Shown: piece after piece, positions 1 through 6,136 of the stretch
Layout of the letters: the number at the start of each line of letters is the position of its first letter
Position numbering within the stretch: the stretch's first letter is position 1
Program-made: the position numbers and the translations under genes
IMG/VR virus record: IMGVR_UViG_3300029073_000029
Source: a virus
Taxonomy: Duplodnaviria > Heunggongvirae > Uroviricota > Caudoviricetes
DNA: 6,136 nt
Strand: one strand, 5' to 3'
Notes under the pieces: model-generated
Told to the model about the DNA's origin: nothing
What the model saw: only the letters and a program-made list of their open reading frames with translations
The model's database searches: none

Positions 1-22
1 CGAAGGTGAGTTGATGGCTCAT
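1..22 (-). CDS. 5' end of a minus-strand ORF (MSHQLTF...) that runs off the left edge; sits where P4 beta follows gop
   Basis: ATG at 22..20 (plus-strand cat), AGAGG about 6 nt upstream, frame open to position 1. It starts 41 nt after the TGA of the 63..1082 gene. Only 7 codons are visible, so identity is unknown. Confidence 0.3.
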
Positions 23-62
23 GATGTCCCTCTGGGATGCGCTCCGGATGAATATGATGATC

Positions 63-1082
63 TCATATCAGGAACTTGTTCGCACCTTCCCTAGCAGAAC
101 GGACATCGACTGGTGTAAGGAAGAATTTATTCTTCCATTTTTGATTTTTAAATCTTGAGGATAGCCTTGCTATTAAAGATGACTTTCCATTTCCTGAACC
201 GCCTATAAGTGATAGGACTCTACTTTGAGAGCTATTTCCTCTAACATTCTCAAGATAATCCCAAACTTCTTTCTGTATATATTCGCGACCAACAAAGTCT
301 TTCGGCTGACATGGCTTATAATCCATAAAATCGTCAGCAAGAATTATTTCACTGACAATTTCCCTTTCGTAATTTTCAGATAATTTTGAAGACGAAACAG
401 TTTGTTCCGGTTCAGATAATATATAAAAATCAGTTACTTCCAACCCTTCAAAAAGCCCTTGCTCCTTTATAATATCACTTATGCGACTGACACTTGGAAT
501 TTTACTATTTTTATTTATAGCGAACGGCACCACTCTTATAGGGCTACCATTTTCAACTTCTTGCAAAAGCCAAGTCATTTCTATTTCAGGATGAACTAAA
601 AGTGTTGCACTAGTATATTTTGCCGGAATGTCATCTGTTGGAATATCCTCAACCTTACCTGTTGCAAGTATAGATATAAGAATCTCTTTTTTATCAAAAA
701 AAGAATAATCTATACGCTCATCAAGTCTATAATCCTCAAGCGTTGACTGAGCATCTTTACCCAAATCAGAAATTGAAAAAAGTGCAATTTTTTTAACTCT
801 CAACCTAAATGCTTGAGAAAATGCCAAATCAACCACAGATGAATCAACTTTTTGCTGCATGAATTTACATTCTACATACAGCTTTTCATTTGATGGTGTA
901 TGAGTAGCCTGAATATCAATTTCCATGCCAGATTTTCTGACTTCCATACCATCAATTCTATACGATTGCCGGCGGAGTATATCAGCGCAAAAATTCTCGA
1001 AAAACTTCCCTCTCGAGGTATTGGAATAATTACTAGGTACACAAACTATCAAATCTTTATTCAGTGGTAACGGCCTGGCCAT
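63..1082 (-). CDS. AT-rich cargo protein, 339 aa: N-terminal Mrr-like PD-(D/E)xK nuclease motif plus C-terminal start of an AAA_16/STAND-type P-loop NTPase that appears truncated
   Basis: Complete ORF with AAGGAG about 8 nt upstream of the ATG at 1082. Seen: GKFFENFCADILRRQSY...GMEIDIQA...KLYVECKF (hD...ExK pattern typical of Mrr_cat restriction-endonuclease domains) and FVGREYIQ...RVLSLIGGSGNGKSSLIARL (Walker A, at about 203..180) followed by only about 38 residues before TGA at 65..63. Clearly AT-rich by eye compared with flanking DNA. Position corresponds to gop in P4 (inference). Confidence 0.8.
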   Translation of the reverse strand: MARPLPLNKDLIVCVPSNYSNTSRGKFFENFCADILRRQSYRIDGMEVRKSGMEIDIQATHTPSNEKLYVECKFMQQKVDSSVVDLAFSQAFRLRVKKIALFSISDLGKDAQSTLEDYRLDERIDYSFFDKKEILISILATGKVEDIPTDDIPAKYTSATLLVHPEIEMTWLLQEVENGSPIRVVPFAINKNSKIPSVSRISDIIKEQGLFEGLEVTDFYILSEPEQTVSSSKLSENYEREIVSEIILADDFMDYKPCQPKDFVGREYIQKEVWDYLENVRGNSSQSRVLSLIGGSGNGKSSLIARLSSRFKNQKWKNKFFLTPVDVRSAREGANKFLI

Positions 1083-1097
1083 TTATACACTCCTTAT

Positions 1098-1127
1098 CTC
1101 ATATCCTTTTGACAAGTAAGATATCAA
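1098..1127 (-). promoter_or_regulatory. Candidate sigma70 promoter for the cargo gene
   Basis: On the minus strand, TTGATA (plus 1127..1122), an 18-nt spacer, then TATGAG (plus 1103..1098), just upstream of the AAGGAG RBS. Motif match only. Confidence 0.25.
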
Positions 1128-1202
1128 CCTCGAGTTTCAGAAACCAGTATCTTGCGCATATTTACGACATCAAAACTTTTGGTTATGCACCCACAGCGCG
1201 CA

Positions 1203-1221
1203 GTGCTTTCCCCGCCTCGCC
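1203..1221. other. cos: cos site: 19-nt P2/P4-type cohesive-end sequence
   Basis: Plus strand gtgctttccccgcctcgcc is the reverse complement of GGCGAGGCGGGGAAAGCAC, which I recall as the P2/P4 cohesive end. The following bases on the minus strand (TGCGCGCTG) also match my recollection of the P2 left end. It lies right after psu, as in P4. Confidence 0.7.
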
Positions 1222-1323
1222 CGCCCGCTTTGCGGGGCGGTTTTAATGCAGTTGCACTGACACGCTCAGACCGCGCCGGGAATGGTGCGGTCTGCAGAAA
1301 ATGAGGCAGGAAAACGCATGCAA

Positions 1324-1355
1324 AGCCATGCACCTTATCGATGCATGGCTTTTTT
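1324..1355. terminator. Perfect 9-bp hairpin with T-tract between psu and cos; possibly bidirectional
   Basis: AGCCATGCA (1324..1332), 9-nt loop, TGCATGGCT (1342..1350), then TTTTT (1351..1355) on the plus strand. On the minus strand the stem is preceded by A-run and followed by UUGCAUGCGUUUU, a weaker U-tract. Confidence 0.5.
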
Positions 1356-1385
1356 CAGTAAAAACGGGAGGATTTTCGGGGAATT

Positions 1386-1958
1386 TTACACAGACTGACG
1401 TGATGCCAGTTGCGCACTTTTACGCGAAAAAATCATGTTCTGCGCAGGGGTGAATTTTTCACGGCTGTCATCCACCGAAGCCGCGTCAGGCCTGAATCCG
1501 ATGGTCGTTAAAATGTCACTATCCTGTGCGGAATAATTAATTTTTTCCCCCTTCGCAAGCCAGGACAGAAGGGCTTCACGCAGGGCATCTGTGGCACGCT
1601 GTATGGCACAGTTTCGGGCAATGGCCGTCAGCTCACTGTAGCCCATCAGCTCCGGTGCCAGTGCCGCCGCCAGTGCTGTGCCGTGCTGCTGCATAAAATC
1701 ATTCAGCCGGTCGCGGATGCTGATGTGCTGAACGGCTTCATGCGAACGAATATAACGACCGGCGGCCTGATTCACCTGCCATTTTCTGACTTCGATAATA
1801 TTGCGTAATTCGTCCAGGCGACTGACGTTTCTGCCTTCTCCTGACTGAATCCGCAGATATTCCTGTTCGGCCGCAGCCAGCTCATTTTTGCGTTGCAGCC
1901 ATGCTGCTTTGTTATTCTGACAGGTGTCAAAGGCCTGCTGTAAGGCTGTGCTTTCCAT
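1386..1958 (-). CDS. psu: Psu-like protein (polarity suppression / capsid decoration), 190 aa
   Basis: Complete ORF of exactly 190 aa, the length I recall for P4 Psu. Third gene of a sid-delta-psu string, immediately upstream of cos as in P4. No distinctive motif was checked, so the call rests on size and synteny. Confidence 0.7.
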   Translation of the reverse strand: MESTALQQAFDTCQNNKAAWLQRKNELAAAEQEYLRIQSGEGRNVSRLDELRNIIEVRKWQVNQAAGRYIRSHEAVQHISIRDRLNDFMQQHGTALAAALAPELMGYSELTAIARNCAIQRATDALREALLSWLAKGEKINYSAQDSDILTTIGFRPDAASVDDSREKFTPAQNMIFSRKSAQLASRQSV

Positions 1959-2031
1959 CGTTATCTCTTTCTCATCATGCTGAAGAATAAAAATACGGTG
2001 TGCGGCGACGGCCGGTGTTAACCGGCAGCCC

Positions 2032-2532
2032 TCATTCCAGACGCAGCGAATATGATTGTGTTTTTAACCGTACTGGCGGCAGTTCCTGTTTTTCATGCAG
2101 GCTTTCTGCAAGCTCGTCCGGCGTGACCGGGCGGACAATGAAGCGGTTGATGGTCTGAAGCGTTTTAAACACCAGACCACAGCCCGGATCCGTGCACACA
2201 TAAAAACGCTCGGTGACTTCCTGAGACAGACGCCGCGATGTTCTTGACAGCGCAAGGCCTTTACATCTCCGACAACAATATCCGGTAACAAGCATTCTTT
2301 TCGGGCGCTTCATGCTGCCGGAGGCTGACGTCAGTGAATCGCGGTATCTCTGTTTGCCTGAAATGTATTCCATTCCTGAATCTTTACAGTCAGAGAAAAA
2401 GCTTTCACTCGCTTCAAATGTCGCAGAGCAATAAATATTCCGGCACTGTGCAATCATTATCTTGGTGCCATCGTCCATGAAATGTGCGCGACGGGTGTGA
2501 GCAACATGTCCACACGACGGGCAGTAAATCAT
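2032..2532 (-). CDS. delta: Delta late-gene transcriptional activator, 166 aa, with two Ogr-type zinc fingers
   Basis: Two copies of the C-X2-C-X22-C-X4-C finger characteristic of the Ogr/Delta family: CPSC...(22)...CRNIYC and CRRC...(22)...CTDPGC. Start ATG overlaps the sid stop as ATGA (plus strand 2529..2532 tcat). Length matches the 166 aa I recall for P4 Delta. Confidence 0.9.
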   Translation of the reverse strand: MIYCPSCGHVAHTRRAHFMDDGTKIMIAQCRNIYCSATFEASESFFSDCKDSGMEYISGKQRYRDSLTSASGSMKRPKRMLVTGYCCRRCKGLALSRTSRRLSQEVTERFYVCTDPGCGLVFKTLQTINRFIVRPVTPDELAESLHEKQELPPVRLKTQSYSLRLE

Positions 2533-3263
2533 GACAGCAGTCCTCTGGCCTTAAGCTTTGCTCCCTGCTGGTCTATTTTGTCCTGCCACACCTTGCGCTG
2601 TGCCGGTGTGCCTGCCACCTCATAATCCATGTGCGGGAGTGTTGCCGCTGACAGTCCGGTCAGCCGGAGAACCGGCTCGCCGGTGAGGCTGATTTGCATC
2701 TGTTTTATTTTCTGTTCCAGCGATGATTTCACCTGCTGCATGACAGCCTTTTCCGGTGCGACGTAGCCCTGATGGCCGGTGGTGTTGGCGAGCGGATTTT
2801 CCTGTACCAGGATGCTCAGATGCATTGCCCGGACAAGCGCCTCACAGGTTTCATTCAGGGCGTGTTCCAGCTCATGCTCTGCATACAGACTCAGCAGGTG
2901 ATGATGTGCCTTCCGGTAGGCGGTGGCCGTGCTGTCACACGCCCCTTTCAGGCGTTCGCGTTCAAAATTCAGCACCACGGCCAGATTGTCATATTCCTGT
3001 ACCAGCTCCCGGCGTGCCACGCGCTCAATGTGGCGCTGTTTCAGCTCGTCGCTCAGGACACCACCGGCTGCACGAAAGGCCGTGCGCCAGTCGTCAGCGT
3101 CGTTTCCGTCGGCCTGCGCCAGCGCATTTTTTTCCTGCTCTGCCCGTTCAATGGCCGTGACGGTCTCATCCATCAGGCGGGCGTTCTCAAGATGGGCGGC
3201 TCTGGCCTTTTCCAGTTGTGCCAGTGCGGGTTTCAGATATTCAGGGATAGTGTGGTCAGACAT
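2529..3263 (-). CDS. sid: Sid-like external scaffold / capsid size determination protein, 244 aa
   Basis: The ORF-track start at 3281 is a GTG. The ATG at 3263 has AGGAG about 7 nt upstream and gives 244 aa, the length I recall for P4 Sid. Helix-prone composition. First gene of the sid-delta-psu order, downstream of TGT-N12-ACA sites. Confidence 0.8.
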   Translation of the reverse strand: MSDHTIPEYLKPALAQLEKARAAHLENARLMDETVTAIERAEQEKNALAQADGNDADDWRTAFRAAGGVLSDELKQRHIERVARRELVQEYDNLAVVLNFERERLKGACDSTATAYRKAHHHLLSLYAEHELEHALNETCEALVRAMHLSILVQENPLANTTGHQGYVAPEKAVMQQVKSSLEQKIKQMQISLTGEPVLRLTGLSAATLPHMDYEVAGTPAQRKVWQDKIDQQGAKLKARGLLS

Positions 3264-3297
3264 TTTCCGGCTCCTCGTCACTTCAGGTTAAGAAAAT

Positions 3298-3353
3298 TGT
3301 GACGTACACCGGACAGCAACACGACGCATTGCAGATGTGCCAGCCCTGACACA
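3298..3353 (-). promoter_or_regulatory. Psid-like late promoter with two TGT-N12-ACA activator sites
   Basis: TGT(3298..3300)-N12-ACA(3313..3315) and TGT(3336..3338)-N12-ACA(3351..3353). The distal site is centred about 55 bp and the proximal about 17 bp upstream of a transcription start assumed near 3290. Ogr/Delta-activated P2/P4 late promoters have this element centred near -55. Confidence 0.5.
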
Positions 3354-3408
3354 GGAGACTCATCCTCACACCGGCAAGCCAGGAAAAGGTCGCAGGAAAA
3401 ACCGGCTT

Positions 3409-3577
3409 ACTGTTTGTTTTTTTATATTTTACTGTTCACCTCTGTTCACCTTAATAAAAAAGATAAGTAATACAGTAAGTTAAAGGATGAACAATCGCAG
3501 TAATGACTGTTCACCGTCTGTTCACCACTGTTCACCCGCTCATGGACTTTTTGTGCTGTTTACTACTGTTTGTTTTT
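3409..3577. other. ori: Putative replication origin with alpha-type iterons
   Basis: Five perfect direct TGTTCACC octamers at 3433..3440, 3443..3450, 3508..3515, 3519..3526 and 3529..3536, spaced about 10-11 bp, separated by an AT-rich spacer and bracketed by a 13-bp direct repeat ACTGTTTGTTTTT (3409..3421 and 3565..3577). I recall TGTTCACC as the type I iteron bound by P4 alpha at ori and crr. Confidence 0.6.
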
Positions 3578-3640
3578 ATTAATTCGCCGGGAATGAATAA
3601 GAAGAAACGATTTGTATTTCACTATAAAAATTACAAATTG

Positions 3641-3670
3641 CTTTAAGTGGCTTTAAATGACTTTAAGTGG
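3641..3670. repeat. Three tandem 10-bp repeats CTTTAA(G/A)TG(G/A)
   Basis: ctttaagtgg / ctttaaatga / ctttaagtgg, head to tail with helical-turn periodicity, about 150 bp upstream of vis. Function not determined; candidate regulator-binding array. Confidence 0.6.
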
Positions 3671-3695
3671 AAATGAACAAAAAACACACAACCAT

Positions 3696-3713
3696 TGTAA
3701 GGCTGCCGGAACA
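3696..3713 (+). promoter_or_regulatory. Candidate activator site of a PLL-like late promoter driving vis
   Basis: TGT(3696..3698)-N12-ACA(3711..3713), centred about 110 bp upstream of the vis ATG, which would place a transcription start near 3755..3760. Confidence 0.4.
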
Positions 3714-3815
3714 AATCCCCCCTGTTGCGTCTGCTGAAAATATTCACAAAATAAAGCGCTACCCGAAGCCGGACGGACTTATCCGGTGCTGTATGGACAT
3801 TAACGAGGTAGCCCG

Positions 3816-4082
3816 ATGCAAGCTGTTTTTTCTTCCCCGTCTCCCGCCCCTGTGACGCCACTGATGCCGCTGCCGGACATCACACAGGAGCGTTTTTTAC
3901 GTCTTCCGGAAGTGATGCACCTGTGCGGCCTGTCACGCTCGACCATCTATGAACTCATCCGTAAGGGGGAATTTCCGCCGCAGGTGAGTCTTGGCGGTAA
4001 AAATGTGGCCTGGCTGCACTCTGAAGTCACCGCATGGATGGCCGGCCGCATTGCCGGACGCAAACGGGGGTACGACGCATGA
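3816..4082 (+). CDS. vis: AlpA/Vis-family DNA-binding regulator (excisionase-like helix-turn-helix), 88 aa
   Basis: [51 protein letters not shown] matches the AlpA-family pattern (LP.V....G.SRST.Y.....G.FP....LG.....W...EV..W). GAGG lies 7 nt upstream of the ATG at 3816. An alternative in-frame ATG at 3864 would give 72 aa. Confidence 0.85.
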
Positions 4083-4117
4083 TGATGCCTGTTCTGCAAA
4101 AAGTCCCTTTTTCTGGC

Positions 4118-4147
4118 TTGCCTTTTTCCGGCATTTGCGGATATAGT
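4118..4147 (+). promoter_or_regulatory. Candidate sigma70 promoter (PLE-like) upstream of the immunity-like leader
   Basis: TTGCCT (4118..4123), 18-nt spacer, TATAGT (4142..4147). Motif match only. Confidence 0.35.
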
Positions 4148-4154
4148 TTTTCCG

Positions 4155-4471
4155 CTGCCGCAAAATCGGCAGCCGGGCGTGAGAACCCGTGTAACTCGAA
4201 GGCGACATATGACGCGCCATGCGTCTTTTTTTGTGTCGCAATCAACGCCACAGAGCGCCAGATTATGGTGTGGCGTGTGGTTTGCCGTGCAGGTATGATC
4301 CTGTTCGCAATCGCATGTTATGCCACTGAGTCAATGGTAGCTCAGGCGGGGCAGCCTCCGGGCTGGCCGGTATTCTTCGAGGCCGGTATTCTCACCCCCG
4401 TCTGGGCTATCGCCATCGAGCGTGAGAACTCCGGCGATAGCAGTTATTTGCTACTCGAAGGAGGCTGCCTT
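4155..4471 (+). ncRNA. Untranslated leader with repeated boxes and complementary segments; candidate cI-type immunity RNA region
   Basis: GCGTGAGAAC occurs twice (4177..4186, 4420..4429), each followed by ACTCGAAGG (4194..4202, 4453..4461; the second abuts the RBS of the 65-aa ORF). Between them, CTTCGAGG (4375..4382) and TTCTCAC (4389..4395) are complementary to those boxes, within a 12-nt direct repeat GGCCGGTATTCT (4365..4376, 4381..4392). No convincing ORF with RBS. Boundaries are approximate. Confidence 0.35.
4211..4232 (+). terminator. Short GC hairpin followed by T7; candidate intrinsic terminator within the leader
   Basis: GACGC (4211..4215), 5-nt loop, GCGTC (4221..4225), then TTTTTTT (4226..4232). 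Confidence 0.4.
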
Positions 4472-4669
4472 ATGGCTACAACCCTTACCCCCTCACACCC
4501 TGAATTTGTCTTTGTGTTTGCGGCTGTCCGTCGCGCAGACCGTCATCCCCGTATCTGCATGCTTCGCACCGTCGCCGGTGATGAACGCAGCGCCCGCCGT
4601 TCCCTTGTCCGTGACTATGTGCTCTCCCTTGCTGCCCGTCTGCCGGTGGTGGAGGTGTCCCGTGCGTAA
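4472..4669 (+). CDS. Small protein, 65 aa, first ORF after the leader (position comparable to P4 kil)
   Basis: GAAGGAGG ends about 7 nt before the ATG at 4472. It is the 3' part of the 211-aa track ORF, whose upstream portion lacks an RBS and overlaps vis and the leader. Confidence 0.55.
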
Positions 4670-4949
4670 TAAAAAAGCCCCTCAGACCGTCTCAGCACGT
4701 CATGACGCCCGTGAACACCTCAGCATTGAGGCTTACCATAAGCTCAACCGCGCCAGCGCCGTATCCCAGTTTGTTGGGGGTGATTTGATTCACCGTGAAC
4801 TCTCCGGCCTGCATCAGCTCTACATTCCGCATATTTTCAGCTACCTGAATGAAGATATTGATTTTGTGCTGAATGAGCTGAAAGCCAAAGGCCTGTGCCG
4901 CGATTTTCTCGCCCAGCAGAAAGACCGGGGAGACAGGACGCATGTTTGA
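4662..4949 (+). CDS. Small protein, 95 aa, GTG start (size compatible with P4 epsilon, not verified)
   Basis: GGAGG (4651..4655) sits 6 nt upstream of the GTG at 4662. It overlaps the stop of the 65-aa ORF by 8 nt and its own TGA (4947..4949) overlaps the next ATG. Confidence 0.6.
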
Positions 4950-5397
4950 TTTTCCCCAGCCCGGTGAGATTTACCGTTCTGCCGGTTTTCCCGATGTGGC
5001 CGTGGTCGGCATTCTGGAAGACGGTATTCCGTGGGAAATGCCGTACCGCTGCCCGGACATTGTCTGGAACCCGTACCGCCGTAAATTCAGTATCCTTGTG
5101 CGTATCCTCGATGACGGGCGCACCACAGACATCCCGCTGGGGCGTTTTCTGCGGGAATTTACCTGTGACCGTCCTGACCTGTTTAAACGCAGCCCCGTAA
5201 ACCGGCATGCGGTACTGAAAGAAATGGCCGGAGACCCGGAATTACAGAAATGGCGGGAGAAATATCTGGATATTTACCCGCAGGACACTGTTCCGGCCAG
5301 CCGGGCGGCACCGGTGGCGCGGGAATGGCGGGAAATTCCCCGCACGGAGCCTGACCCGGAAATCACCCCGGATAACAGTTACCGCAATTATCTGTAA
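4942..5397 (+). CDS. Hypothetical protein, 151 aa (same length as P4 orf151)
   Basis: Complete ORF, start overlaps the upstream stop (translational coupling), purine-rich stretch upstream. Length and position within the left operon match my recollection of P4 orf151. Confidence 0.75.
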   Translation: MFDFPQPGEIYRSAGFPDVAVVGILEDGIPWEMPYRCPDIVWNPYRRKFSILVRILDDGRTTDIPLGRFLREFTCDRPDLFKRSPVNRHAVLKEMAGDPELQKWREKYLDIYPQDTVPASRAAPVAREWREIPRTEPDPEITPDNSYRNYL

Positions 5398-5470
5398 TTA
5401 AAAAACGATACCCGAAAAATTAAATGTGCGTATTCGCGCAGGGATACGCACGTCTTCAGGAGACGCAGAT

Positions 5471-5536
5471 ATGCCTTATCAGTTAATGCAACCGGCACGG
5501 AATGCAGTCATCTGTCACAGGGAGGAAAACAAATGA
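5471..5536 (+). CDS. Possible 21-codon leader micro-ORF ([21 protein letters not shown]) coupled to the next gene
   Basis: AGGAGA (5458..5463) lies 7 nt upstream of the ATG at 5471. Its stop TGA (5534..5536) overlaps the ATG (5533..5535) of the 106-aa ORF as ATGA. Too short to judge by composition. Confidence 0.25.
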
Positions 5537-5853
5537 AAACACCCTTACCGCCCGTCTTACGCGCTGCCCTTTACCGTCGCGCTGTCGCCTGTGCCTGGCT
5601 GACCGTGTGCGAACGTCAGCACCGCTACCCGCATCTCACCCTTGAGTCACTGGAGGCGGCCATCGCCGCTGAGCTGGAAGGCTTTTATCTGCGCCAGCAC
5701 GGTGAGGAAAAAGGGCGTCAGATAGCCTGTGCCCTGCTGGAAGATTTAATGGAATCCGGCCCCCTGAAGGCCGCGCCGTCGCTGTCCTTTCTCGGGCTGG
5801 TTGTGATGGATGAACTCTGTGCCCGTCACATAAAAGCGCCGGTACTGCACTGA
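5533..5853 (+). CDS. Hypothetical protein, 106 aa, immediately upstream of the primase
   Basis: GGGAGG ends 8 nt before the ATG. Complete ORF ending 14 nt before the alpha start. Whether this or the 95-aa ORF is the epsilon (anti-repressor) equivalent cannot be decided from sequence alone. Confidence 0.75.
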
Positions 5854-5867
5854 AGGAGAACAACACC

Positions 5868-6136
5868 ATGAAAATGAACGTAACCGCCACCGTCAGCCAT
5901 GCGCTCGGCCACTGGCCGCGTATTCTCCCGGCGCTGGGGATTCAGGTGCTGAAGAACCGTCATCAGCCCTGTCCGGTCTGTGGCGGGAGTGACCGCTTCC
6001 GTTTTGATGACAGGGAGGGGCGTGGCACCTGGTACTGCAATCAGTGTGGTGCCGGTGACGGCCTGAAACTGGTTGAAAAGGTGTTTGGTGTTTCCCCGTC
6101 CGACGCGGCCGCAAAGGTGGCTGCCGTGACCGGCTG
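5868..6136 (+). CDS. alpha: Alpha-type primase/helicase replication protein, N-terminal part only (runs off the window)
   Basis: AAGGAG (5853..5858) lies 9 nt upstream of the ATG at 5868. Translation MKMNVTATVSHALGHWPRILPALGIQVLKNRHQPCPVCGGSDRFRFDDREGRGTWYCNQCGAGDGLKLVEKVFG carries a CxxC...CxxC zinc ribbon of the kind found at the N terminus of P4-type primases. No stop within the window. Confidence 0.85.
   Translation, partial: MKMNVTATVSHALGHWPRILPALGIQVLKNRHQPCPVCGGSDRFRFDDREGRGTWYCNQCGAGDGLKLVEKVFGVSPSDAAAKVAAVTG

What the first reader, a model, noticed from the sequence alone, without database searches (positions are those of the whole stretch)
1203..1385. cos site with two flanking hairpins in the psu-cos spacer
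Seen: the 19-nt sequence at 1203..1221 matches the P2/P4 cohesive end as I recall it. Between it and the psu stop lie an 8-bp inverted repeat (CAGACCGC 1267..1274 / GCGGTCTG 1287..1294) and a perfect 9-bp hairpin with T-tract (1324..1355). The second looks like a terminator, stronger on the plus strand, that is, against transcription entering psu in antisense; the first has no T-tract. Inference: either could also be part of the terminase recognition region, which in P2 extends to one side of the cut site.
Basis: partly seen in the sequence, partly recalled or inferred. Interest (0 to 1): 0.45.

Follow-up and report, generated by a model that had tools for sequence, protein, structure and literature searches.

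The report
P4-type cos site and its recognition arm

Summary
Window 1203-1221 is the exact reverse complement of the P2/P4 cohesive end GGCGAGGCGGGGAAAGCAC, and window 1222-1460 is 98.3% identical to the right end of phage P4.

Both inverted repeats are real. The first is 1267-1277/1284-1294, 11 nt with one mismatch. The second is 1322-1332/1342-1352, 11 nt and perfect.

I compared 117 distinct P2-family cos right arms: 16 satellites with psu, 59 with the helper portal gene nearby, 42 others that are mostly helpers.
- The second hairpin is built from two of three TGCAT boxes fixed at -124, -111 and -101 from the nick. A fourth box lies at -29.
- The first hairpin is a dyad centred at -60.
- Helpers that have no psu carry the same boxes and often the same dyad.
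- 99 distinct P4-like arms align over 152 nt without a single indel, and show no covariation beyond sequence conservation.

Best reading: a one-sided, lambda-cosB-like terminase recognition arm. This is inferred, not shown. Only satellites extend the distal boxes into a strong hairpin, which probably also ends or insulates sid-delta-psu transcription.

This is an ordinary member of a known system; the box anatomy is a modest refinement.

The parts
1203..1221 (-). 19-nt cohesive end (cosN). Read on the minus strand it is GGCGAGGCGGGGAAAGCAC. The nicks are inferred between 1221|1222 (minus strand) and 1202|1203 (plus strand).
   Evidence: Identical to P4 1-19 and to the annotated cosL of P2. The nick positions are taken from the ends of the P2 and P4 records; they were not measured here.
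1196..1250 (-). 55-bp core shared by P2 and P4, positions -29 to +26 from the nick. It includes GCGCGCA at 1196-1202, on the cargo (hotspot) side of the cohesive end.
   Evidence: 53 of 55 bases match P2 by eye. The columns are near-invariant in 117 arms. The 55-bp core is cited from Ziermann and Calendar 1990 in PMC3931495, PMC5694545 and PMC9594776. P4-like homology in E. coli genomes ends at about 1193-1197.
1221..1240 (+). Hairpin-capable stretch abutting the nick, CCGCCCGCTTTGCGGGGCGG followed by TTTT. It lies inside the 55-bp core.
   Evidence: The only terminator-like site in the scan. Not more stable than shuffles. By eye, the 186-type variants (e.g. L005, L009) do not fold here. I read it as a duplex recognition sequence.
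1246..1257 (-). Proximal box pair, GTGCA-AC-TGCAT on the minus strand. The TGCAT is at -29 to -25. The family consensus is ATGCA-nn-TGCAT-(T/G)AAAA.
   Evidence: TGCAT at 1246-1250 on the minus strand. TGCAT falls in the -30 to -21 bin in 114 of 117 arms, and ATGCA in the -40 to -31 bin in 70 of 117. Consensus.
1267..1294 (.). Arms 1267-1277 and 1284-1294, centre at 1280.5, which is -60 from the nick.
   Evidence: The best inverted repeat of at least 5 bp is centred at -60 in 12 of 12 satellites and 36 of 55 helpers that have one. A perfect repeat of at least 7 bp occurs in 24-31% of arms against 2-5% of dinucleotide shuffles. No T tract follows it on either strand.
1318..1345 (-). Three direct TGCAT boxes on the minus strand: 1341-1345 (-124), 1328-1332 (-111) and 1318-1322 (-101).
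   Evidence: for positions. In 117 arms, 90, 91 and 81 carry TGCAT in these three 10-nt bins, against about 1 per bin elsewhere. The 13 + 10 spacing with the last box at -101 is the commonest layout in every class.
1322..1352 (.). It is a perfect 11-nt inverted repeat formed by box 1 and box 2 plus satellite-specific extensions. As minus-strand RNA it reaches 13 pairs (1322-1334 with 1340-1352).
   Evidence: It is strong only in satellites: median -19.5 kcal/mol, z -4.25, against -10.2, z -0.98 in helpers. All 16 unbiased satellite arms have an inverted repeat of at least 7 bp here.
1350..1355 (+). T6 run after the distal hairpin on the plus strand. On the minus strand the tail is TTTGCATGCGTTTT, window 1324 down to 1311.
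   Evidence: The plus-strand T6 is present in 61 of 109 P4-like haplotypes. The minus-strand tail is (T/C)TTTGCAT in 107 of 109.
1353..1385 (-). A/T-rich spacer between the psu stop codon (1386-1388) and the distal hairpin. It is conserved among satellites and in a subset of helpers, phage 186 among them.
   Evidence: by eye. The psu stop lies at -165 to -167, so the whole psu-cos spacer is occupied by the conserved arm.

Best explanation
The region is the cos site of a P4-like satellite prophage. It has two parts: the 19-nt cohesive end, and a one-sided recognition arm of about 130-165 bp on the psu side.

The arm is a rigidly spaced array of duplex DNA motifs:
- AAGCGGGCG at the nick;
- a TGCAT box pair at -36 to -25;

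My inference is that the helper phage's terminase reads this array to place the staggered nicks. Its small subunit gpM would bind the boxes, as gpNu1 binds the R sites of lambda cosB, and the dyad might bend the DNA or bind a dimer.

In satellites only, boxes 1 and 2 have been extended into an 11-13 bp hairpin with U-rich tails on both strands. This probably also works as a bidirectional intrinsic terminator or attenuator. It would end sid-delta-psu transcription before it crosses cos, and would block antisense entry from cargo genes.

Shown here: the identity of the cos site, and the conservation, positions and spacing of the motifs in both helpers and satellites. Inferred: terminase binding and transcription termination.
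For: Identity of the cos site:
- Exact cohesive end and 98.3% identity to the P4 right end.
- psu confirmed by Pfam PF07455, E 1e-87.
- The genomic context in E. coli STEC346 is a P4-like island next to ssrA with an integrase.

Motifs shared by helpers and satellites:
- In 117 distinct right arms fished only by the -9 to +13 sequence, TGCAT sits in the bins at -130 to -101 in 81-91 arms and at -30 to -21 in 114 arms, against about 1 per bin elsewhere and on the other side of the cut.
- Among the 59 helper arms with portal gene Q nearby, 37-45 carry TGCAT in each distal bin and 57 in the proximal bin.
- 34 of the 52 loci in which neither psu nor Q was found within the stretches first searched (1.2 kb on the psu side, 1.5 kb on the other) also encode Q elsewhere in the locus.
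- The helper-only consensus shows islands of conservation exactly at the two hairpins and nothing in between.
- Helper sequences upstream of box 1 are mutually unrelated.

Rigid geometry:
- Last box at -101 and spacing 13 + 10.
- Dyad centre at -60.
- 99 distinct P4-like arms align over 152 columns without any gap.

Sequence-level rather than structure-level constraint:
- The loop and the tail of the distal hairpin are nearly invariant. Covariation is no higher than in shuffles: 445 of 500 shuffles reach the observed score.

One-sidedness:
- Conservation ends at +26, where satellites diverge into cargo.

Related phages:
- Phage 186 has the same arm, but its annotated terminator t95b lies upstream of the boxes. 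The boxes are therefore not simply a terminator.
- Pseudomonas phage phiCTX has the same layout with GCAG boxes, a 7-bp dyad at about -59 and a box at -28. Its record annotates repeats and an IHF site around cos (positions read by eye).

Dual role in satellites:
- The hairpin is strong only where psu reads into cos: z -4.25 against -0.98.
- U-rich tails on both strands.
- Some helpers whose upstream gene reads toward cos carry a separate canonical terminator upstream instead (by eye).

Published experiment:
- Longer P4 cos flanks raised cosmid transduction more than 1000-fold (PMC9594776). That study did not resolve which flank matters.
Against: - No binding, cleavage or packaging data were available. 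The primary deletion study (Ziermann and Calendar 1990) is not in the library, so I could not check whether its minimal cos includes the boxes.
- P2 itself lacks a recognisable -60 dyad. It scores -10.7 against the helper matrix. The dyad therefore cannot be essential for P2 terminase.
- Only 25 of 59 helpers have three or more exact distal boxes.
- The sequences are related by descent, so part of the conservation is inheritance. The argument rests on the contrast with the diverged stretches between the motifs.
- From memory, and unverified, the right end of P2 DNA is the end found at the tail. It would then be packaged last. If so, a lambda-style model in which terminase stays on the arm it binds needs modification.
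- The psu-sense tail has only 3-4 U before GCAU, which is weak for an intrinsic terminator.
Confidence: 0.68

Rival explanations
1. The second hairpin (1322-1352) is only the Rho-independent terminator of the sid-delta-psu operon. The first is an incidental GC-rich palindrome. Neither takes part in packaging.
For: - The hairpin lies 33 nt after the psu stop. It is strong (-22 kcal/mol, z -3.46) and has U-rich tails.
- The strong stem is specific to elements in which psu reads into cos.
- An intrinsic terminator makes sense behind a gene whose product disables Rho (PMC11718236).
Against: - The TGCAT boxes that make the stem lie at the same distances from the nick in helpers without psu.
- Loop and tail are nearly invariant, and no indel occurs in 152 nt across 99 arms. 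A terminator does not need that.
- Phage 186 places its annotated terminator upstream of the same boxes.
- The -60 dyad is position-locked in both classes.
- The P4 record annotates terminators for cII and alpha but none after psu.
Confidence: 0.15
2. The hairpins act as RNA structures. They could be a 3' stabiliser of the psu mRNA, or part of a small RNA or antisense transcript crossing cos.
For: - Both fold better than shuffles on at least one strand.
- Among P4-type variants of the first hairpin, by my count 6 of 8 substitutions keep G.U pairing on the plus strand (by eye).
Against: - No Rfam family matches the region even at E up to 1.
- There is no covariation beyond column conservation.
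- The 6 to 2 split is not significant (two-sided binomial about 0.29, my own arithmetic).
- Helpers keep the motifs but mostly not the stems.
Confidence: 0.07
3. The conserved arm is kept as a homology anchor for recombination. That recombination swaps the defence cargo next to cos between P2-like and P4-like elements. The arm is not kept for terminase recognition.
For: - Rousset et al. propose that cos-adjacent recombination drives cargo exchange (PMC9122126).
- I found mosaics with a P4-type arm joined to a 186-type cohesive end, and breakpoints inside the 19-mer.
Against: - Conservation is in short islands separated by freely diverging DNA. That pattern fits binding sites. A recombination anchor would be a continuous homologous block.
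- Rigid spacing without indels is not required for recombination.
Confidence: 0.07

Closest known systems
cos site of satellite phage P4 (NC_001609 / X51522, both ends of the linear record)
   Same: The cohesive end is identical. Window 1222-1460 is 98.3% identical to the P4 right end. Both hairpins and all boxes are present in P4. psu lies immediately upstream.
   Different: There are two substitutions in the first hairpin: the window has a mismatch at an inner position and P4 at an outer one. On the cargo side the window continues TGCGCGCTG as in P2, where P4 has CGCGCGCAA. The cargo differs: an Mrr_cat plus STAND-like gene here, gop/beta/cII in P4.
cos site of helper phage P2 and the 55-bp P2/P4 core (Ziermann and Calendar 1990, as cited in PMC3931495, PMC5694545 and PMC9594776)
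   Same: The same 19-mer. 53 of 55 core positions match. There are three direct TGCAT boxes about 100-125 bp from the nick and one at -29.
   Different: P2 has no -60 dyad and no strong distal hairpin (-7.7 kcal/mol against -21.5). Beyond the boxes on that arm lies the old/tin cargo, whose mRNA starts about 150 bp from the nick and reads away from cos.
Phage lambda cos (cosN plus cosB with R3-I1-R2-R1), from established knowledge of lambda packaging
   Same: It works alike in outline: a staggered-nick site with short repeated boxes on one side only, at fixed distances. An intervening element could bend the DNA.
   Different: There is no sequence similarity. The overhang is 19 nt rather than 12. 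The boxes are TGCAT, not lambda R sequences. No IHF consensus was recognised by eye. Binding by gpM is untested. From memory, P2 prefers circular monomers as substrate. Which arm is packaged first was not established here.
Bidirectional Rho-independent terminators
   Same: A GC-containing stem of 8-13 bp, flanked by an A run upstream and a T run downstream, so that both strands give a hairpin followed by U residues.
   Different: The 9-nt loop (5 nt if extended) is at or beyond the usual range, and the scan did not call it. The psu-sense tail has only 3-4 U. The sequence is far more conserved than a terminator needs.

Membership tests
P2/P4-type cos site | 19-nt 5' cohesive-end sequence GGCGAGGCGGGGAAAGCAC | tested here: met
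   Window 1203-1221 is its exact reverse complement. It is identical to P4 1-19 and to P2 cosL 1-19.
P2/P4-type cos site | About 55 bp of conserved core around the cohesive end (-29 to +26) | tested here: met
   53 of 55 positions match P2, by eye. The columns are near-invariant across 117 arms.
P2/P4-type cos site | Satellite context: downstream of psu, at the edge of the psu-int cargo hotspot | tested here: met
   Psu matches PF07455 at E 1e-87. The sid-delta-psu order is seen. In E. coli STEC346 a cargo gene and an integrase follow, next to ssrA. The hotspot is described in PMC9122126.
P2/P4-type cos site | Cleavage by P2-family terminase and packaging of DNA that carries the site | not testable with these tools
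   This needs transduction or in vitro ter assays.
Lambda-cosB-like terminase recognition array | Repeated short boxes on one side of the nick site, at fixed distances, conserved among phages that share a terminase type | tested here: met
   In phiCTX the box sequence changes to GCAG while the layout is kept (by eye).
Lambda-cosB-like terminase recognition array | Binding of the terminase small subunit to the boxes | not testable with these tools
   No binding data were found in the accessible literature.
Lambda-cosB-like terminase recognition array | Host bending-protein (IHF) site between the boxes | not tested
   No formal IHF scan was run, and none was obvious by eye. The phiCTX record annotates an IHF site about 300 bp from its cos, probably linked to attP.
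Rho-independent (intrinsic) terminator | Stable GC-containing stem-loop | tested here: met
   The 1322-1352 hairpin folds at -22.0 kcal/mol on the minus strand (z -3.46) and -17.6 on the plus strand (z -1.68).
Rho-independent (intrinsic) terminator | U-rich tract directly after the stem | tested here: inconclusive
   The plus strand has UUUUUU and meets the criterion. The psu-sense strand has UUUGCAUG, which is weak. Across 109 haplotypes the plus-strand T-run is 6 in 61 and 2 in 34, and the psu-sense tail is 3-4 T in 107. The scan did not call the site because the loop exceeds 8 nt. The 1267-1294 hairpin has no T tract on either strand.
Rho-independent (intrinsic) terminator | Transcript 3' ends at the site | not testable with these tools
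   This needs Term-seq, 3' RACE or reporter read-through assays.

The most novel reading that the evidence does not exclude
Satellites of the P4 family carry a sharpened version of the helper's packaging signal. All three distal TGCAT boxes are intact in every satellite arm, against about 40% of helper arms, and they are fused into a dyad. This version would do two jobs. It would let the satellite out-compete helper DNA for terminase. It would also act as a Psu-insensitive intrinsic terminator that controls how much transcription crosses cos into the defence cargo.
Probability: 0.2. Interest if true: 0.55.

Novelty: already known. Interest (0 to 1): 0.32.

Why it matters
[quoted passage not shown] It sits at the edge of the defence-gene hotspots of both (PMC9122126).

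A base-level map of what lies beyond the textbook 55-bp core tells three things:
- what a minimal efficient P4 cosmid should contain. Longer flanks raised transduction more than 1000-fold in PMC9594776;
- where cargo can be inserted without harming packaging: beyond +26 on one side and beyond about -130 on the other;
- whether defence genes that run in the same direction as psu can really be expressed as an extension of the psu operon, as speculated in PMC11718236. A conserved hairpin with U tails, which Psu cannot suppress, stands in the way.

Tried and rejected
1. Strand-specific RNA signature in the first hairpin. Among P4-type variants, by my count 6 substitutions keep G.U pairing on the plus strand and 2 on the minus strand (by eye). 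This is not significant, so I dropped it.

2. Covariation test on 99 P4-like arms. Nothing exceeded the shuffles. This gives no support for an RNA structure, and I used it as evidence for sequence-level constraint. Caveat: these arms were fished with the core of the distal hairpin, so those columns are invariant by construction.

3. Rfam scan of the whole window at E up to 1. Nothing matched in 1100-1400.

4. The 'satellites carry the optimal array' idea, scored with a helper-derived position matrix. Satellites score higher on the distal boxes (36.9 against 31.3, p 0.0015, sequences not independent). They score lower on the dyad and the proximal box. The result is mixed, so I kept the idea only as the novel case.

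5. Whole-window enrichment of TGCAT: 20 matches against 21 expected. The signal is positional and comparative; it is not compositional.

6. A promoter inside the spacer. None was found by the scan or by eye.

7. Literature. Ziermann and Calendar 1990 and the 1993 P4 review are not held. Cosmid-engineering papers give no deletion map.

8. The psu-based locus search in the genome collection gave only 6 loci. The wider sample came from two pattern scans of IMG/VR, each cut at 120 rows.

Full report
WHAT THE WINDOW IS

The window is a piece of a P4-like satellite prophage. On the minus strand lie sid (2529-3281), delta (2032-2532) and psu (1386-1958). The psu product matches Pfam PF07455 at E 1e-87. 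Bases 91-6136 are 99.98% identical to a P4-like island next to ssrA in E. coli STEC346.

CHECKING THE OBSERVATION

- Window 1203-1221 is the exact reverse complement of GGCGAGGCGGGGAAAGCAC. That sequence is bases 1-19 of P4 and the annotated cosL of P2, and PMC3931495 quotes it as well.
- Window 1222-1460 is 98.3% identical to the last 239 bases of P4.
- The first inverted repeat extends to 11 nt with one mismatch, 1267-1277/1284-1294.
- The second is a perfect 11-nt repeat, 1322-1332/1342-1352, with a 9-nt loop.
- Both fold better than dinucleotide shuffles on at least one strand.
It is no more stable than shuffles. By eye it is not conserved as a structure in the variants with a 186-type cohesive end.

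COORDINATES USED BELOW

I number from the nick on the psu-sense (minus) strand. Position -n is window 1221+n. Position +n is window 1222-n.

COMPARATIVE SAMPLE

A psu-based search of the genome collection gave 6 divergent P4-like loci with about 60% Psu identity.

A scan of IMG/VR with only the -9 to +13 sequence gave 120 loci. With P2, P4, the window and a few annotated phages these made 132 arms, of which 117 distinct arms with at least 300 nt on each side were analysed. Of those 117:
- 16 have psu upstream;
- 59 have the helper portal gene Q within 1.5 kb on the other side;
- 42 have neither within the stretches searched (1.2 kb on the psu side, 1.5 kb on the other).

Of the 52 loci without psu or Q in those stretches, 34 encode Q elsewhere in the locus.

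A second scan, anchored on the core of the distal hairpin, gave 109 distinct P4-like haplotypes.

WHAT THE HAIRPINS ARE MADE OF

The second hairpin is built from repeated boxes. On the psu-sense strand, TGCAT occurs at -124, -111, -101 and -29 (window 1341-1345, 1328-1332, 1318-1322 and 1246-1250).
- Across the 117 arms, TGCAT falls in the three 10-nt bins from -130 to -101 in 90, 91 and 81 arms, and in the -30 to -21 bin in 114. Every other bin from -200 to +200 holds about one.
- The 59 Q-linked helpers show 37, 44, 45 and 57.
- The commonest layout in every class is spacing 13 + 10 with the last box at -101.
- The stem of the hairpin is box 1 (ccATGCAt) paired with box 2 (gTGCATgg). Box 3 is the TTTGCATGCG that follows.

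The first hairpin is a dyad whose centre is locked at -60. That holds in 12 of 12 satellites and in 36 of 55 helpers that have an inverted repeat of at least 5 bp there. Perfect repeats of at least 7 bp occur in 24-31% of arms against 2-5% of shuffles.

The helper-only consensus shows islands of conservation at exactly these places, with unconstrained DNA between them. Conservation stops at +26 on the other side of the cut. Upstream of box 1 the helper sequences are unrelated to one another.

RIGIDITY AND TYPE OF CONSTRAINT

Ninety-nine distinct P4-like arms align over 152 columns with no gap, although the inter-motif stretches differ widely.

On that alignment the two stems are paired in 95% and 61% of cells, against 31-40% when the partners are slid. 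No covariation measure exceeds the shuffles. The loop and tail of the distal hairpin are nearly invariant.

This is the signature of duplex sequence recognition with fixed helical geometry. It is not the signature of an RNA structure. Nothing in Rfam matches the region.

WHAT DIFFERS BETWEEN SATELLITES AND HELPERS

The boxes are shared, but the strong distal hairpin is not. The median fold energy of -145 to -92 is -19.5 kcal/mol (z -4.25) in satellites and -10.2 (z -0.98) in helpers.

All 16 unbiased satellite arms have at least three exact distal boxes. Only 25 of 59 helpers do.

Some helpers whose neighbouring gene reads toward cos carry a separate canonical terminator upstream of the boxes (by eye). 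In phage 186 that terminator is annotated as t95b, directly upstream of an arm very like the satellite one.

Pseudomonas phage phiCTX keeps the layout with a different box sequence: GCAG boxes at about -109, -99 and -83, a 7-bp dyad at about -59 and a box at -28. Its record annotates repeats spanning cos (positions read by eye).

MECHANISM

The only function that helpers and satellites share at this locus is being cut and packaged by the same terminase. I therefore infer that the array is the terminase recognition arm. It is functionally like lambda cosB, with the TGCAT boxes as small-subunit (gpM) sites and the -60 dyad as an accessory element. P2 itself lacks the dyad, so it cannot be essential.

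In satellites, psu always reads into cos, and Psu disables Rho (PMC11718236). There the two outer boxes have been extended into a hairpin with U-rich tails.
- The psu-sense tail is 3-4 T followed by GCAT in 107 of 109 haplotypes.
- The antisense tail is T6 in 61 haplotypes and T2 in 34.

This probably serves as a modest bidirectional intrinsic terminator or attenuator.

Binding and termination are both inferences. No experiment was available.

LITERATURE

The accessible papers know the 19-nt end and a 55-bp core shared by P2 and P4. One reports that longer P4 flanks raise cosmid transduction more than 1000-fold, without mapping the effect. I found no description of the box array for P2, P4 or 186. 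The primary deletion study is not held, so I cannot claim the anatomy is new.

PMC11718236 speculates that defence genes running in the same direction as psu extend the psu operon. The conserved hairpin bears on that idea. In this window the cargo gene does run in the same direction as psu.

VERDICT

This is a real and correctly identified P4-type cos site, which is an already known kind of element and nearly identical to P4's own. The useful result of the second look is this: both hairpins belong to a conserved, one-sided, rigidly spaced recognition arm shared with helper phages, and the distal one probably has a second job as a terminator in satellites.

LIMITS

- The sequences are related by descent.
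- Both IMG/VR scans were cut at 120 rows.
- The second scan is biased toward an intact distal hairpin.
- Several statements about single phages were read by eye.

Noticed in passing
window 1124-1333, minus strand: RefSeq (PGAP) annotates a 69-aa hypothetical protein (WP_071590453.1) in the identical STEC346 sequence. It runs straight across the cohesive end, the -60 dyad and box 3. The linear packaged genome would cut it at cos, so it is probably a spurious gene call.
   Followed up: partly
window 1-90 and 63-1082: Bases 1-90 do not match STEC346. They match thousands of places in E. coli chromosomes and plasmids, up to 43 per genome, so they look like the end of an insertion sequence. That insertion truncates the cargo gene, which is annotated as a 2742-bp (913-codon) 'restriction endonuclease' CDS in STEC346 and has Mrr_cat and a STAND-like P-loop. 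Only a 339-aa ORF is left here.
   Followed up: partly
loci L105, L213, L220, L150, L199, L227, L243 (cos junctions): Some satellites join a P4-type right arm (..CAAAGCGGGCG|) to a 186-type cohesive end (GGCGTGGCGGGGAGAGCAT). Others switch type inside the 19-mer. This points to recombination or repair breakpoints at or within cos, as Rousset et al. suggested for cargo exchange.
   Followed up: partly
alignment A1 (99 P4-like arms; window 1210-1361 is the first row): There is not a single insertion or deletion in 152 nt among 99 distinct sequences, although some stretches are almost unconstrained in sequence.
   Followed up: yes
L248 (phiCTX 35200-35580): The phiCTX right arm has the same layout but with GCAG boxes in place of TGCAT, and a CCAGCAG/CTGCTGG dyad at about -59. 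The record annotates R4-R6 repeats spanning cos and an IHF site nearby.
   Followed up: partly
L003 about 625-680 (P2 33424-33480): In P2 the mapped starts of the old-tin mRNA lie about 150 bp from the nick and read away from cos. The promoter region should therefore overlap or abut the distal TGCAT boxes (by eye).
   Followed up: no
window 4141-4417, plus strand: Rfam hits above gathering score: c4-a1b1 (4141-4193), isrK (4154-4231) and C4 antisense RNA (4330-4417). This is the P4-type RNA immunity region.
   Followed up: no
window about 3430-3540: A cluster of TGTTCACC repeats in both orientations. It corresponds to the 'ori type 1 repeats' annotated in the P4 record (by eye).
   Followed up: no
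window about 4662-4950: In STEC346 the epsilon-like 'Derepression protein' is annotated as frameshifted. The window differs from STEC346 by one gap somewhere in 91-6136. I did not locate the gap.
   Followed up: no
window 1185-1189, minus strand: A further TGCAT lies at +33 to +37, on the cargo side of the cut (GGGTGCATAACC). There is no positional enrichment on that side in the family, so it is probably chance.
   Followed up: yes
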